Shown piece by piece: positions 4,042-27,402 of a stretch of 64,000 nucleotides of DNA; within the stretch, counting starts at the first letter, position 1, and every line of letters starts with the position of its first letter. Both the position numbers and the translations under genes were made by a program. Below the pieces are notes generated by a model. That model worked only from the letters and a program-made list of their open reading frames with translations. It ran no database searches and was not told the DNA's origin. Source of the DNA: a virus; IMG/VR virus record IMGVR_UViG_3300025435_000016, positions 12,416-76,415 of that record. The stretch is one strand, 5' to 3'.

Positions 4042-6039
4042 ATGATCCCCTTAACGTCGTTATTACAGCCTACTAGTAGCTATACATTAAACCCTGTAAC
4101 CTCGTTAAGTGCCACAATTCTCAACTCTGTTACAGCTGTTAGTATTCTTAATCCTGTAACAGCTGTTAATATCGCTTCAAGCAATGTAATATTACCTATC
4201 TCTGGTTCTGTTACAATTTTAAATTCTGTTACCTCTTTAAGTGCTTTTGTTATTAATCCTGTAACAGCTGTAACTATTCTCAATCCTGTTACCGCTCTTA
4301 ATGTAACAAATACTATAGCAATTAGTACAACACAGACATTTTCTGTATCTGTGGTAAACCCACAAATTGAAATCACTAATGATATTGGTAATCCAATACC
4401 GATTAATACAACTCAGACTCTTCCTGTATCGGGTAGTGTTACAGTAACAACACCTATAACATCATTACCATCTGGAATTCAGCTAGTAAGTAACGCGCCT
4501 GGCTATCAGCTTGATCAAACCGGTCGTGCGAGAACTGCTGTACTCGGTCAGCAATGGTGGTATAATTCAACAACCGATAAGGATGGTGATTATCGAATGA
4601 TTGAATCCTTTACGTCAACGGCAACTAGTATCTATGTTCAGAATTATGCTAGTACATTGATGACGTCAGGAACGGCAAATGGAGCTACAGCAATAAGAAC
4701 AAGTCGTCGTAGACATAAACTACGTCCTGGTGTTGGTATGCAGTATTTCGGCACCTGGTGCTGGGATGGATATGATACAAATGTTGTAAAACGTAAGGGT
4801 TGGTATACTAATTACAATGGAATGTTCTTTGAATTGTCTGGTGGTGATATGAACGCGGTTGTTCGTATGAGATTAATGGATGGAACTCTACTGGAAACAA
4901 GAGTACCAAGAAGTCAATTTAATGGTGATAAGATAGATGGTAATGGACCGAGTGGAGAGAATTGGAATTTACCTGCCTTATCTGCTTATACTACTAATAC
5001 TATTACCCCAACAGTTACTGCTGTTTCCGTTGGTAGTACCACTGTCTGGAATGTTCGATATAGTGTAACAAATGCAGCCCAGGCTAGTGCCTTCCTTATT
5101 GGTTCTAAAGTTACTGTAAATGGATTTACTCCGTTTACGTTTAATGGACCCGCTATTGTTCAGTCCTATAATACAGCTACGCCTTCTATTACTCTAACCT
5201 ATCCATTAAGTGTTGGTAATTATAGTGCAGGGGCTAGTACTGGAAATATAATACAAACTGCCTTCCACGGTACTCATACCTATTGGCTTGATATTATTGG
5301 TGATAGAACAAATCAAGTTCGTTTCGGTAAGGTAACCGATAAGGGTGAAGTTATTCTACATACAATGGCCTTTGATGGTCAATTTGGTTCTCCTTATTCT
5401 AATGCCCCAGCAATGCCTGTTAGAAAAGAAATTTACAATACAGGAACTGTTAATTATAATCCAACAATATCTATGTTTGGTTGCTCTATTAACGTTGAAG
5501 CAAGTGTTGAGCTTAATCCTTACTTTTCATCAGTATATAATAATACACCAATTAACTGTAATCTGAACCAAGAAGTAGTTATTCTAGGAGTCGGTCAGCG
5601 ATTTGGTGAACCATGGCAACGAGGAGATATTCAAGTTCAGAGTATTGGCATTCAGGATACAGCTAATCCTCCAGGAAAGAATGCAAACAACTCTATTATC
5701 TTTTGGCGTCTTTTATTAAACCCTGGATTAAGTGGAATGCCGACTTCTGTTAATACAGGTAAGTCTATTCAGTATTGGCCTTGTACATCAACAACAGGTT
5801 TAACGGGTAGTCAGCCTAGTGGATATGCTAATATGGGAGGTGGTTGGGAGTTGTTAACCGGATACGCACAATCTGGTGACACTATTAATGTTAATACTCA
5901 ATTAAACTTCCTTAACCTCGGATCTAATATTCAATACACAGATGCCGATAAAATCTTCTTAACTGGTAGAATAATAACAGCTGGTGGCAATACCCCGGCG
6001 ACTTTAGTAGCTAACATGAACGTAATTGAATCTCTTTAA
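4042..6039 (+). CDS. Putative structural protein, paralog of 28641-30458, with N-terminal (I/L)LNPVTA repeats
   Basis: 665-aa ORF after TATAAATA (4025-4032). RTSRRRHKLRPG...GWYTNYNGMFFE aligns by eye with RQSRPYHRYQPG...GFFDDSNGIFFE. Confidence 0.6.
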   Translation: MIPLTSLLQPTSSYTLNPVTSLSATILNSVTAVSILNPVTAVNIASSNVILPISGSVTILNSVTSLSAFVINPVTAVTILNPVTALNVTNTIAISTTQTFSVSVVNPQIEITNDIGNPIPINTTQTLPVSGSVTVTTPITSLPSGIQLVSNAPGYQLDQTGRARTAVLGQQWWYNSTTDKDGDYRMIESFTSTATSIYVQNYASTLMTSGTANGATAIRTSRRRHKLRPGVGMQYFGTWCWDGYDTNVVKRKGWYTNYNGMFFELSGGDMNAVVRMRLMDGTLLETRVPRSQFNGDKIDGNGPSGENWNLPALSAYTTNTITPTVTAVSVGSTTVWNVRYSVTNAAQASAFLIGSKVTVNGFTPFTFNGPAIVQSYNTATPSITLTYPLSVGNYSAGASTGNIIQTAFHGTHTYWLDIIGDRTNQVRFGKVTDKGEVILHTMAFDGQFGSPYSNAPAMPVRKEIYNTGTVNYNPTISMFGCSINVEASVELNPYFSSVYNNTPINCNLNQEVVILGVGQRFGEPWQRGDIQVQSIGIQDTANPPGKNANNSIIFWRLLLNPGLSGMPTSVNTGKSIQYWPCTSTTGLTGSQPSGYANMGGGWELLTGYAQSGDTINVNTQLNFLNLGSNIQYTDADKIFLTGRIITAGGNTPATLVANMNVIESL

Positions 6040-17093: not shown

Positions 17094-17184
17094 AAGACCT
17101 GCCCGGATTCGAACCGAGATTTCTGGATTATCTATCCAACGGCTAAGGTATAAGCTTAGTGTTTTACCCTTAAACTACAGGTCC
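17094..17184 (-). tRNA. tRNA with UAU anticodon (nominal Ile) and a long variable arm
   Basis: GGACCTG/CAGGTCT acceptor; CTAAG-CTTATAC-CTTAG; V-arm TGGAT-AGATA-ATCCA; GGTTCGAATCC; no CCA. Confidence 0.8.
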
Positions 17185-23720: not shown

Positions 23721-23758
23721 AAGAAAAACCCCTACTACCTGATCAGGGCAATAGGGGT
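23721..23758 (-). terminator. Intrinsic terminator ending the large ncRNA
   Basis: ACCCCTATTGCC-CTGATCA-GGTAGTAGGGGT followed by TTTTCTT. Confidence 0.85.
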
Positions 23759-24191
23759 GAGTTCGAACTCTGTTTTCCATTTCTTTATCTCTCTGCATTT
23801 TAGGGATAGCGACTCCTTTCCGGACTTGAGACCGGCAACTGGTAGCATTACTAAAGAGGTGATTGAAAGGATTTTATTCCGGATTTTGTTCCTTCCTTAA
23901 CGGAGATCAGGCATGGAGCCTCTACTTCCGTCCAGCTTGTGTTTAATCAATACGTTAGGATCAAAGCTTACCGTAGGTGTTTGGCTCCCCTAACTTGAAT
24001 AAGGACTACTAACATACCAACAAGCAACTCATCCTTACCCCTCTCTAGGATAATTCCTACAACTAGAGAGTATTAATTTTATGACCGGGGTGGTTAATCC
24101 ATCCTTGTGCAGCGGTTGATAAACGCGTTTTAGAGCAACCTAGTCACCCGCACGTACGGTAGCTCTTTCGATCGAGCCTGCGAACGGTCAA
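23759..24191 (-). ncRNA. Large ornate non-coding RNA, ROOL-like
   Basis: No credible ORF; more GC-rich than flanks; many helices (TGACCG/CGGTCA, CTCTCTAG/CTAGAGAG, GGAGCC/GGCTCC, GCTC/GAGC, CCGG/CCGG); own promoter and terminator; next to tRNAs. The ROOL resemblance is recalled, not computed. Confidence 0.65.
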
Positions 24192-24203
24192 ATTATTAAA
24201 ATG

Positions 24204-24261
24204 TACTATCAAAGATCAATTCTTATTCTCTTAATATAGTGCCTGAATAAGGAAGTGGCAA
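24204..24261 (-). promoter_or_regulatory. Sigma70 promoter plus boxA-like element upstream of the large ncRNA
   Basis: TTGCCA-17 bp-TATATT (24261-24233), then TGATCTTTGATAGTA (24218-24204). Confidence 0.7.
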
Positions 24262-24269
24262 CTAAAAAA

Positions 24270-24343
24270 TGGAGCCTAGTGACAGAATCGAACTGTCAAG
24301 ACGGATTTACAAAAACCGCATTATACCATTTAATTAACCAGGC
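24270..24343 (-). tRNA. tRNA-Thr(UGU)
   Basis: GCCTGGT/ACTAGGC-TCCA acceptor; loop TTTGTAA; GACAG-TTCGATT-CTGTC. Confidence 0.9.
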
Positions 24344-24348
24344 AAATT

Positions 24349-24421
24349 TGGCAGAGGAAGGAGTTGAACCTTCTATTTCAACGTTATGAGCGTTGCGAGA
24401 TGACCGTTTCTCTACTCTGCG
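24349..24421 (-). tRNA. tRNA-Met(CAU), initiator-like acceptor
   Basis: CGCAGAG/CTCTGCC with a C1:C72 mismatch; CAACG-CTCATAA-CGTTG; no CCA. Confidence 0.85.
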
Positions 24422-24431
24422 TTAAAAAATT

Positions 24432-24555
24432 GTAAGTTCCTTTGTCCTAAAAACTTGAAGCGTCCTTCATTATGTATTAGTTTTGTACGAACTTACGACG
24501 AACCGGTTCCATGCATACAACCTTTCGAACAGCTGTAGAGAGGGTTTTGCCGATT
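24432..24555 (-). ncRNA. Candidate ~125-nt two-domain structured RNA
   Basis: AATCGG/CCGGTT enclosing TACAGCT/GGTTGTA; GTAAGTTC/GAACTTAC enclosing AAAACT/AGTTTT and GAAG/CTTC. Confidence 0.4.
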
Positions 24556-24581
24556 ACTGTAAAGTGGTGGAGGCGAGGGGA

Positions 24582-24787
24582 CACTTAATCTCTAGCTTTC
24601 GCTAAAGCGTGGACTATATCTTCACCCGTAAGGGTGTTGGATGCTCTAGCCGGTACTCCGGTAGTCTCTGCACCTTCCTATTTCTAGGCTCGGCTCAGTA
24701 TTGCCATATTGCTTTCGCAATTTAGGTTTCACTGAATTCTTCCAATTTATTCATTATCTATTACTAGATAAGTCGACCTGCATGTTG
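24582..24787 (-). mobile_element. Group I intron (206 nt, no ORF, IC3-like) in the tmRNA T-loop
   Basis: P1 exon UCGAU / intron GUCGA with U:G at the splice site; R CAGAGACTA; S AAGATATAGTCC; Q GGCAATACTGAGCCGAG; terminal G. Confidence 0.9.
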
Positions 24788-25017
24788 ATCGAACCCCTGT
24801 GTTTATACTGTTAGGCTTGTACATCTACACGCTTAGCTAGCTTTCGTACTTTGGTTGACTAAAGGTAACCAGGCACCAGCGACCTATCCATGTTTAGAGT
24901 CCTACCTATGCAGATGGAAGAGCTCTGCATAACCCCTTGCACTTATTTTAAAGGTATCACAAGTTCTACCTTACCTATTATTTTTCCAAAAGCGTAATAG
25001 GATCTGCTTTTGGTTCC

Positions 25018-25125
25018 TTAGGCTGCGATAGCGAGAGGAGCCATTTCGTCACAGAGACAGAACTCTGTGATTGTATTGACTGCCTTCTTTACCTTGGCGA
25101 GGATTGCGTTGACGTTAGTCTTTGC
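25018..25125 (-). other. tmRNA tag reading frame, 35 aa: AKTNVNAILAKVKKAVNTITEFCLCDEMAPLAIAA*
   Basis: Translated by hand from the resume codon GCA at 25125 to TAA at 25020-25018. Confidence 0.8.
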
Positions 25126-25229
25126 GTTTATGTTTTGATTAGCTTTTTAAAGTGGCCAACTAATCAACCACTACGTGCAATACAAGTTTCGAGTATAAGT
25201 CGAATCCAGTACGCCCCCAAAATTATTTA

Positions 25230-26667: not shown

Positions 26668-27402
26668 ATGAATTATAATAAAATTTATGATAACATTATT
26701 AGCCGCGCAAAAGAACGCGGTGCAATGAATGCTTATACGGAAAAGCATCATATTATTCCACGTTGCATGGGAGGCAATGATGACAAGATAAACTTAGCTG
26801 TATTGACACCAGAGGAACATTTTGTATGTCACTTGTTATTATTGAAAATGTATCCAGATAATAAAAAGTTAGCGTATGCAATAAGGGTGATGTGTGGTGA
26901 AAGCGCACCCACTAATAAACGTAATAATAAACTCTACGGGTGGCTGAAGCGTAGGATATATAGGAACAAAACAGTAAAAACATGCTCCACATGTGGTAAT
27001 AACTTCTCTATATCATTCTGTTCATTAAAAAAGCAATTTTGTAGTAAGAAGTGCCATGATATTAATCAACGAAAATCGCGTATTAAGAAGATATGTAAAA
27101 CATGTAACATGATTTTTTATGCACCACTTAGTAAGAATCTGAAGCAATTCTGCAGCATAGATTGCTCTGCAAAAGATAGAGAAATAAAAATAATAAAAAC
27201 ATGTTTAGTGTGTAACCGTCAATTTAAAGTGCTACCTTCTATGAGTTTTATTAAATGCTGCAGTAGAGCGTGTGCAGATACAAACAAAATTAAAAAAATT
27301 ATAAAAACATGTCCTCTCTGTAATACACAATTTCAAGTTGTTCCTAGTAAGAAAAAGATATTCTGTAGTAGAAGTTGCTCAAAACGCAAACATATACAAT
27401 AA
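26668..27402 (+). CDS. HNH homing endonuclease with four C-terminal CxxC...CSxxC zinc-ribbon repeats
   Basis: EKHHIIPRCMGG...N...LTPEEHFVCHLLL; oriented opposite to its neighbours. Confidence 0.88.
   Translation: MNYNKIYDNIISRAKERGAMNAYTEKHHIIPRCMGGNDDKINLAVLTPEEHFVCHLLLLKMYPDNKKLAYAIRVMCGESAPTNKRNNKLYGWLKRRIYRNKTVKTCSTCGNNFSISFCSLKKQFCSKKCHDINQRKSRIKKICKTCNMIFYAPLSKNLKQFCSIDCSAKDREIKIIKTCLVCNRQFKVLPSMSFIKCCSRACADTNKIKKIIKTCPLCNTQFQVVPSKKKIFCSRSCSKRKHIQ

What the first reader, a model, noticed from the sequence alone, without database searches (positions are those of the whole stretch)
24565..25218. Phage tmRNA split in its T-loop by a minimal 206-nt group I intron
Seen: removing 24787-24582 restores AGGGG-TTCGATT-CCCCT followed by CGCCTCC-ACCA. 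The intron has P1 with the U:G splice-site wobble, P7-forming R/S elements, a terminal G and no ORF. Established: T-loop group I introns are known in a few bacterial tmRNAs (e.g. Clostridium botulinum), and IC3-type tRNA introns are about this size. Inference: phage ribosome rescue here depends on self-splicing, and standard tmRNA finders may miss the gene.
Basis: partly seen in the sequence, partly recalled or inferred. Interest (0 to 1): 0.85.

Follow-up and report, generated by a model that had tools for sequence, protein, structure and literature searches.

The report
Phage tmRNA gene split by intron
A large uncultured freshwater phage carries its own ribosome-rescue RNA (tmRNA) gene, cut in two by a small self-splicing-type intron; bacteria are already known to have this gene layout, so this is a well-supported new host and a new intron lineage, not a new mechanism.

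Summary
On the minus strand, 25218-24788 and 24581-24565 are the two exons of a tmRNA. The 206 bases at 24787-24582 are an ORF-less group I intron (Rfam RF00028, 84.6 bits; RF00023, 53 bits unspliced).

Eleven related viral contigs carry the same tmRNA without the insert, and the gap matches the proposed splice sites. Six others carry the same 206-nt intron, with compensatory changes in P5, P8 and P9.

The site is T-loop position 7, the main site among 883 bacterial intron-form tmRNA sequences (PMC11915505). So the kind is known. Three things add to it:
- The host is a phage.
- The intron resembles phage capsid-gene and tRNA introns, not three clostridial tmRNA introns examined here.
- It is present or absent among close alleles and is more conserved than its exons.

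Splicing itself is inferred. The one RNA run laid gave no junction evidence. ARAGORN misses this whole tmRNA clade, intronless members included, probably because of a conserved 33-35-residue tag. This scan noted the same intron earlier on other DNA (e1-5898312, e1-5898334).

Verdict: first reading supported; new member of a known kind; moderate interest.

The parts
24788..25218 (-). tmRNA exon 1 (431 nt): 5' acceptor strand GGGGGCG, tRNA-like domain 5' half, pseudoknot 1, tag reading frame, further pseudoknots, and the 5' half of the T-arm up to T-loop nucleotide 6 (ends GGGGTTCGAT)
   Evidence: RF00023 53 bits at 25210-24786; aligns along its length with intronless homologues that score 100-115 bits
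25018..25125 (-). Tag reading frame inside exon 1: resume codon GCA at 25125, 35 codons ending ...PLAIAA, then stop TAA
   Evidence: Read from the Rfam alignment. An open frame of 33-35 codons ending in AA is kept in all ten alleles of this clade despite peptide divergence
24582..24787 (-). 206-nt ORF-less group I intron with P1, P2, P3, P4, P5/P5a, P6/P6a, P7 (bulged A), an extra hairpin between P7 and P3' (P7.1-like), P8 and P9; it ends in G at 24582
   Evidence: RF00028 84.6 bits. A manual structure is 99.7% paired in 5 alleles, with double compensatory changes in P5a, P8 and P9. The minimum-free-energy fold recovers most helices, z = -4.26. Precisely absent from 11 homologous loci
24773..24792 (-). 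P1: exon bases UCGAU (24792-24788) pair with the internal guide GUCGA (24777-24773); U at 24788 pairs with G at 24777 as the 5' splice-site wobble
   Evidence: 5 of 5 alleles paired; minimum-free-energy fold forms the same hairpin
24565..24581 (-). tmRNA exon 2 (17 nt): last T-loop base, 3' T-stem CCCCT, 3' acceptor strand CGCCUCC, discriminator A and encoded CCA
   Evidence: identical 16-17-nt end in all intronless and intron-bearing alleles
24270..24421 (-). tRNA-Met (24421-24349) and tRNA-Thr (24343-24270) directly downstream on the same strand, with no terminator-like site between them and the tmRNA; probably one transcript (inferred)
   Evidence: ARAGORN and Rfam; promoter/terminator scan

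Best explanation
The segment is a phage-encoded one-piece tmRNA gene of the 'intron form'. A compact, ORF-less group I intron sits between nucleotides 6 and 7 of the T-loop (position 7). The primary transcript, probably made together with the downstream tRNA-Met and tRNA-Thr, cannot form the T-arm or the acceptor stem until the intron is removed. The ribozyme pairs exon UCGAU with its guide GUCGA (the U:G wobble marks the 5' splice site), binds guanosine in P7, and uses its terminal G to define the 3' splice site. The exons are then ligated into a 448-nt tmRNA with a G3:U70 alanine identity pair, an encoded CCA end and a 35-codon tag. Working with the host's SmpB, this RNA would release stalled ribosomes and tag the nascent peptides. 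Shown here: the gene, the intron boundaries, the conserved ribozyme fold, and the intron's presence or absence among alleles. Inferred: self-splicing, use of host SmpB, and ribosome rescue. The intron belongs to an intron pool that circulates in phages. It appears to have entered this site independently of the three clostridial tmRNA introns examined here, and it has been gained, lost or exchanged among related phage tmRNA alleles.
For: RF00028 84.6 bits and RF00023 53 bits. Eleven homologous viral loci lack exactly these 206 nt and score 100-115 bits for tmRNA. Intron-bearing alleles score 53-55 bits or fall below threshold: L011 scores 114.8, against 54.7 for L024, whose exons differ from L011's only at the base before the intron. 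Six further contigs carry the same intron. All 60 proposed base pairs form in 5 alleles, with compensatory double changes in P5a, P8 and P9. The tag frame is intact and conserved in intron-bearing and intronless alleles alike; L013 with the intron and L020 without it encode the same tag. That implies intron-bearing genes remain under selection and so must be spliced. Introns are 93-95% identical where their exons are 70-82% identical. The window's closest exon relative, L020 at 90%, has no intron. The window intron shares a 48-nt stretch at about 90% identity, and 61% overall, with introns that split capsid genes of marine podophages, but only 41-43% with three clostridial tmRNA introns at the same site. 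No SmpB gene was found in this record or in two relatives at least 91% complete.
Against: There is no direct evidence of splicing. The only RNA run holding related sequence gave contigs over the tag region and part of the intron, none across a junction. P10 pairing with the 3' exon is weak (one U:G pair). The independent-lineage claim rests on three bacterial tmRNA introns out of 883 catalogued. The cleanest case of one allele with and without the intron (L024 against L023) could be a chimeric metagenome assembly, because the two types share a 21-nt word at the switch point. The record is only about 35% of the genome, so an SmpB gene elsewhere in it is not excluded.
Confidence: 0.9

Rival explanations
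1. The insert is a dead or non-splicing remnant and the tmRNA gene is a pseudogene disabled by the insertion.
For: Splicing is not shown; P10 is weak; the intron has no endonuclease gene, as expected of a decaying element.
Against: Every core helix is intact and 99.7% paired in five diverged copies, with compensatory changes. The CM score, 84.6 bits, is higher than for the three clostridial tmRNA introns examined here (29-38 bits). Exons of intron-bearing alleles keep the acceptor stem, T-arm halves and a full open tag frame, identical to that of an intronless allele.
Confidence: 0.04
2. The intron splices, but the mature phage tmRNA is not a plain ribosome-rescue RNA. Its conserved 33-35-residue tag gives tagged proteins another fate, or the RNA competes with the host tmRNA. 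Intron removal could then also time its activity during infection.
For: The tag is about three times the usual 10 residues and is conserved as a peptide across alleles. The paper cited says the most frequent tag length is 10 aa, and that a phage tmRNA-like RNA (mycobacteriophage DS6A) inhibits the host tmRNA (PMC11915505). No phage SmpB was found.
Against: All parts of a canonical tmRNA are present (G3:U70, CCA, resume codon, a tag ending in AA plus stop), so ordinary trans-translation is the simplest reading. Nothing here speaks to regulation of splicing.
Confidence: 0.15
3. The intron spreads, or persists, because a neighbouring free-standing homing endonuclease cuts intronless tmRNA alleles (collaborative homing, or the intron acting as protection).
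For: The tmRNA neighbourhood in this phage group is rich in endonuclease genes. There is a mobD-like gene 1.45 kb away in the window at 26668-27402. A conserved 120-aa HNH gene lies just downstream of the tmRNA in many relatives. L022 carries GIY-YIG and endonuclease VII genes.
Against: The window's mobD-like gene has no homologue in any of the 18 related loci searched. The 120-aa HNH occurs with the intron (L022, L028) and without it (L005, L007, L011 group, L012), and is absent from the window, L013 and intronless L020 and L016. Presence of the HNH gene therefore shows no association with intron status.
Confidence: 0.1

Closest known systems
Intron-form bacterial tmRNA genes (group I intron in the T-psi-C loop; first reported by Williams 2002, cited as ref. 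11 in PMC11915505; 2025 census of 883 unique sequences in 21 phyla)
   Same: Same gene form and the same insertion point, T-loop internucleotide position 7, with U at -1 and a terminal G. Three clostridial examples fetched here (L121, L123, L125) have the junction GGTTCGA(T/C)|...G|TCCC..GCCTCCACCA, as the window does.
   Different: The host genome is a phage of about 200 kb, not a bacterium. The intron is shorter (206 nt against 284-419 nt in the three examples), scores far higher on RF00028 (84.6 against 29-38 bits), and is only 41-43% identical to them. I could not run the census paper's tmRNA_intron model.
Group I introns that split capsid genes of marine podophages (KT997847, Chosvirus; OQ984150, phage C72C1)
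   Same: These are the closest DNA matches to the intron in GenBank phages: a 48-nt P5'-to-J6/7 stretch at 90-92% identity, RF00028 scores of 77-82 bits, a similar compact size, and matching P8 and P9 helices with compensatory differences.
   Different: They interrupt protein-coding genes, KT997847 lacks the hairpin between P7 and P3', and their P1 guide sequences fit other exons.
Bacterial tRNA anticodon-loop group I introns (compact, about 200-250 nt)
   Same: The exact 20-nt P6a/J6/7 word of the window's intron occurs in introns inside tRNA genes of Parachlamydia, Micavibrio and Acidimicrobiaceae genomes. Those introns are likewise small, lack an ORF, and sit in a loop of a tRNA-shaped domain.
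   Different: They sit in the anticodon loop, which tmRNA lacks. I did not determine the subgroup (IC3 or IA3) rigorously.
Phage-encoded tmRNAs (for example in mycobacteriophages and huge phages; PMC11915505, PMC7162821)
   Same: A phage carries its own tmRNA next to tRNA genes and has no SmpB of its own.
   Different: Those described in the papers I could search are standard or CDS-less forms. I found no published intron-form phage tmRNA in three literature searches.

Membership tests
Group I intron (Rfam RF00028) | Covariance-model score at or above the curated gathering score | tested here: met
   84.6 bits against a cut-off of 50, E 4e-20, full model 1-253
Group I intron (Rfam RF00028) | U at -1 paired with G of the internal guide in P1, and G as the last intron base | tested here: met
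   U24788:G24777 within a 5-bp P1; G at 24582
Group I intron (Rfam RF00028) | Conserved core P3-P8 including the P3/P7 pseudoknot, maintained by selection | tested here: met
   All core helices are 100% paired in 5 alleles except one A.C cell in P5; double compensatory changes in P5a, P8 and P9; the slid controls pair only 28-38%. The diversity is small (97% mean identity).
Group I intron (Rfam RF00028) | Guanosine-dependent self-splicing with exon ligation | not testable with these tools
   The one RNA run laid gave no junction-spanning contig
tmRNA (Rfam RF00023) | Covariance-model score at or above the gathering score | tested here: met
   53 bits against a cut-off of 47 for the unspliced gene. 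The nearest intronless allele, L020 (90% identical exons), scores 102.1, and others score 100-115. The spliced window sequence itself could not be submitted.
tmRNA (Rfam RF00023) | tRNA-Ala-like domain: 7-bp acceptor stem with G3:U70, T-arm, and a CCA end | tested here: met
   Formed only after removal of 24787-24582: GGGGGCG/CGCCUCC, AGGGG-UUCGAUU-CCCCU, ACCA
tmRNA (Rfam RF00023) | Internal tag reading frame with an alanine resume codon, ending in hydrophobic-Ala-Ala plus stop | tested here: met
   GCA resume codon, 35 codons ending LAIAA, then TAA; conserved in ten alleles
tmRNA (Rfam RF00023) | Works with SmpB | tested here: inconclusive
   No PF01668 match in this record (35% complete) or in two relatives 91-100% complete; use of host SmpB is inferred
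Intron-form tmRNA (PMC11915505) | Group I intron inside the T-psi-C loop at one of the four catalogued subsites | tested here: met
   Between loop nucleotides 6 and 7 (position 7), the main catalogued site
Intron-form tmRNA (PMC11915505) | Intron homologous to the bacterial tmRNA intron lineage | tested here: not met
   41-43% identity to three clostridial tmRNA introns, against 61% to a phage capsid-gene intron; the relative L003 does carry the bacterial type. Only 3 of 883 catalogued introns were compared.
Mobile group I intron with its own homing endonuclease | Endonuclease ORF inside the intron | tested here: not met
   No ORF over 40 codons overlaps the 206 nt

The most novel reading that the evidence does not exclude
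A phage-pool group I intron, unrelated to the classical bacterial tmRNA introns, independently colonised the same T-loop position of a phage tmRNA. It is now moving, or being lost, among diverged phage tmRNA alleles without an endonuclease of its own. In these lake phages the tmRNA gene is a hot spot for several kinds of selfish insert: this intron, a bacterial-type intron carrying a LAGLIDADG-like ORF, and a stem-closed endonuclease cassette in pseudoknot 1.
Probability: 0.45. Interest if true: 0.5.

Novelty: new member of a known kind. Interest (0 to 1): 0.4.

Why it matters
It extends the intron form of tmRNA from bacteria to phages. It also shows that T-loop position 7 has been invaded by at least two unrelated intron lineages, which fits the census paper's idea of multiple founding events. 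Practically, ARAGORN misses this tmRNA clade altogether, and Rfam finds it only in truncated form or not at all when the intron is present, so counts of phage-encoded tmRNAs are probably too low. The natural set of near-identical alleles with and without the intron is a ready system for testing how an endonuclease-less intron spreads, and whether splicing limits phage trans-translation.

Tried and rejected
- **ARAGORN on the spliced sequence.** I joined the exons in silico and ran ARAGORN. It found nothing, as with the unspliced gene. It also misses the intronless relatives, so this says nothing about the intron.
- **Rfam on the spliced window sequence.** I used natural intronless alleles as proxies.
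- **RNA evidence.** One search for sequencing runs returned 23 DNA runs and one metatranscriptome with a 0.04 share of words. Laying it gave two contigs, one over the tag region and one over 34 nt of the intron. Both came from a relative and neither crossed a junction, so there is no verdict on splicing or expression.
- **Association with endonuclease genes.** The window's mobD-like gene is unique to the window. The conserved 120-aa HNH gene downstream of the tmRNA shows no association with intron status.
- **Second copy of the L022 cassette.** A scan of viral contigs for the ends of the cassette found only L022 itself.
- **The intron's core word in bacterial genomes.** The scan of bacterial genomes found 12 loci: prophage protein-gene introns, tRNA introns and one match with no evident intron context, none in a tmRNA.
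- **Promoter scan.** A 9-of-12 site lies about 50 nt upstream of the tmRNA, but the number of sites equals the shuffle expectation, so it carries no weight.
- **Considered and rejected.** An integrase-type island in the tmRNA 3' end: the insert is only 206 nt, has no integrase and shows a ribozyme fold. A permuted two-piece tmRNA: the RF04321 match scores only 23 bits. An assembly artefact: ruled out by an independent DNA run and six further contigs.

Full report
**The observation**

The finding was checked on the minus strand. The sequence begins at 25218 with GGGGGCGTACTGGATTCGAC, a typical tmRNA 5' end. It runs to ...ACAGGGGTTCGAT at 24788. A 206-nt insert follows (24787-24582, starting CAACATG and ending AAGTG). 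The gene ends with TCCCCTCGCCTCCACCA at 24581-24565.

Removing the insert restores a 5-bp T-stem with the loop TTCGATT. It also restores a 7-bp acceptor stem (GGGGGCG/CGCCUCC) with the G3:U70 wobble that marks alanine identity, then a discriminator A and an encoded CCA.

**Model-based checks**

- Rfam at curated thresholds reports Intron_gpI (RF00028) at 24822-24590(-), 84.6 bits, E 4e-20.
- It reports tmRNA (RF00023) at 25210-24786(-), 53 bits against a cut-off of 47. The tmRNA match stops at the intron and lacks the 3' acceptor strand.
- These are the only tmRNA and group I matches in the 76.4-kb IMG/VR record that holds the window. CheckV rates that record about 35% complete.
- The surroundings are clearly phage: virion structural proteins, ribonucleotide reductase, endonuclease V, a homing endonuclease and eight tRNAs.

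**Comparative evidence for the boundaries**

Short exact words from the tmRNA retrieved related viral contigs.

- Eleven contigs carry the same tmRNA uninterrupted: L005, L007, L011, L012, L014, L016, L017, L019, L020, L021, L023. They read ...GGGGTTCGACT-CCCCTCGCCTCCACCA, and the alignment shows a clean 206-nt gap at the proposed splice sites.
- Six further contigs carry the same 206-nt intron: L013, L015 (cut by the contig end), L018, L022, L024, L028.
- One contig, L003, has a different 654-nt intron at the same point.
- Intron-bearing alleles have T at the -1 position where intronless alleles have C. That matches the need for a U:G pair in P1.
- The four intronless alleles scanned score 99.7-114.8 bits on RF00023 (L005 and L007 scored 111.7). 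L024, whose exons differ from L011 only at that one base, scores 54.7 against 114.8. L013 and L028 fall below the gathering score. This natural comparison stands in for the before-and-after-splicing test, which the tools could not run on a joined sequence.

**The DNA arrangement is real**

A contig from a DNA run of a different sample (X2) covers 24300-25093 with no differences.

**Intron anatomy**

- P1 pairs exon UCGAU with the guide GUCGA, with U24788:G24777 at the splice site.
- P2 is a 7-bp hairpin with a GNRA loop.
- P3, P4, P5/P5a (GAAA loop), P6/P6a (GAAA loop) and P7 (a bulged A) are all present.
- A 4-bp hairpin lies between P7 and P3', in the P7.1 position.
- P8 and P9 (GAAA loop) follow, then 8 nt ending in the terminal G.
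- In the five distinct copies, 99.7% of 300 pair cells are standard pairs. Shifting the partners by 1-3 columns drops this to 28-38%.
- P5a, P8 and P9 each show a change on both sides that keeps the pair, and one allele shows the G:U intermediate in P5a.
- An unconstrained minimum-free-energy fold recovers P1, P2, P4, P5, P6a, the extra hairpin, P8 and P9 (z = -4.26).
- No ORF longer than 40 codons overlaps the intron.
- P10 is weak. I did not assign a subgroup.

**The tmRNA looks functional**

The tag frame starts at GCA (25125) and encodes 35 residues ending PLAIAA before TAA. All ten alleles of the clade keep an open frame of 33-35 codons ending in Ala-Ala, although the peptides differ. Intron-bearing L013 and intronless L020 encode the same tag. 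Intron-bearing genes therefore appear to be under the same constraint as intronless ones. That only makes sense if the intron is removed from the RNA.

No SmpB gene was found in this record or in two relatives that are 91% and 100% complete. Use of the host protein is inferred.

ARAGORN finds no tmRNA in any member of the clade, with or without the intron. I think the long tag and the 445-451-nt length are the likely cause, but I did not test this.

**What is known**

[quoted passage not shown] It suggests several founding invasions (PMC11915505; phylum table).

The window's intron lies between loop nucleotides 6 and 7, which is position 7. Three clostridial intron-form tmRNA genes that I fetched (L121, L123, L125) have the same junction. 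The gene form is therefore known.

The census also searched RefSeq viruses, but neither its text nor the one table held mentions a viral intron form. Three literature searches found no report of one. This scan has noted the same 206-nt intron on other phage DNA before (e1-5898312, e1-5898334).

**Lineage of the intron**

- Its best GenBank phage matches are introns that split capsid genes of two marine podophages. They share 48 nt at 90-92% identity and score 77-82 bits on RF00028.
- Its 26-nt P6 word occurs on 74 viral contigs, and a 20-nt version occurs in bacterial tRNA and prophage-gene introns.
- Global identity is 61% to the KT997847 capsid intron. It is 41-43% to the three clostridial tmRNA introns, which also score only 29-38 bits.
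- The intron of L003 starts like the clostridial type.
- This points to a separate invasion of the same site from a phage intron pool. The comparison covers only three of the catalogued bacterial introns.

**Gain, loss and exchange**

- Introns are 93-95% identical between alleles whose exons are 70-82% identical.
- On an exon tree the intron sits mainly in one well-supported clade (window, L013, L028) that also contains intronless L020; intron-bearing L022 falls just outside it.
- L024 carries the intron but falls inside the otherwise intronless L011 group.
- L024 is 100% identical to L023 over 3901 nt, up to the base before the -1 position, and then switches to an L022-like sequence. This is either recombination at the insertion site or a chimeric assembly at a shared 21-nt word. 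I cannot tell which.

**Endonucleases**

I tested whether a nearby endonuclease explains the spread.

- The window's mobD-like gene (26668-27402) has no counterpart in related loci.
- A conserved 120-aa HNH gene downstream of the tmRNA occurs with and without the intron, and is absent from the window.
- No association was found.

**Limits**

Splicing, expression and function are inferred. The single metatranscriptome that could be laid gave no junction-spanning contig.

**Verdict**

This is a new member of a known kind: a phage host and a distinct intron lineage. Interest is moderate.

Noticed in passing
L022:5141-5729 (IMGVR_UViG_3300025372_000164): A related tmRNA carries the 206-nt T-loop intron and also a 589-nt insert in the last loop of pseudoknot 1. 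The insert is closed by a 24-bp stem formed by its own ends and holds an endonuclease VII-family ORF (5206-5745; Pfam PF02945, 73.6 bits). No Rfam intron family matches it. Only this one copy was found in viral contigs.
   Followed up: partly
L003:3009-3662 and L003:2145-2212: A more distant phage tmRNA has a 654-nt intron at the same T-loop site. Its 5' end resembles clostridial tmRNA introns, and it carries a weak LAGLIDADG-like ORF (20.8 bits, below cut-off) on the strand opposite the tmRNA. A Pistol ribozyme (RF02679, 59.7 bits) lies about 380 nt upstream of that tmRNA.
   Followed up: partly
window 25018-25125 (-) and homologues: The tmRNA tag is 35 residues, and 33-35 in all ten alleles of the clade, against the usual ~10. 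It is conserved as an open frame ending in Ala-Ala. ARAGORN misses every member of this clade, even the intronless ones.
   Followed up: partly
window 26668-27402 (+): A free-standing mobD-like homing endonuclease gene (phrog_655, E 3e-46; 79% DNA identity to T4 mobD over 94 nt) is inserted between the 5'-nucleotidase gene and a small ORF. It has no counterpart at this place in any related locus.
   Followed up: yes
L005:10455-10835, L023:4723-5085, L012:4284-4685, L028:5254-5622(-), L022:7563-7925: A 120-133-aa HNH protein, 75-100% identical between loci whose other proteins are only 45-70% identical, sits just downstream of the tmRNA (sometimes after one tRNA) in many relatives. It is absent from the window, L013, L016 and L020.
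   Followed up: partly
L024:1-3901 against L023:698-4598: The two are 100% identical over 3901 nt, and the identity ends one base before the intron's -1 position. After that, L024 follows an L022-like sequence. This is either a recombination joint at the intron site or a chimeric metagenome contig.
   Followed up: partly
window 23721-24261 (-): About 540 nt with no ORF of 100 or more codons lie between tRNA-Thr and the next conserved gene, bounded by promoter-like and terminator-like sites. Other first-stage notes call it a candidate structured RNA. No Rfam family matched at gathering thresholds.
   Followed up: no
window 17094-17184 (-): The tRNA-Ile (anticodon TAT) is 91 nt long, unusually long for an isoleucine tRNA.
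   Followed up: no
L004, L006, L008: Other viral contigs share the same 20-nt tmRNA 5' word but carry circularly permuted (two-piece) tmRNA genes (RF04321, 99-120 bits).
   Followed up: no
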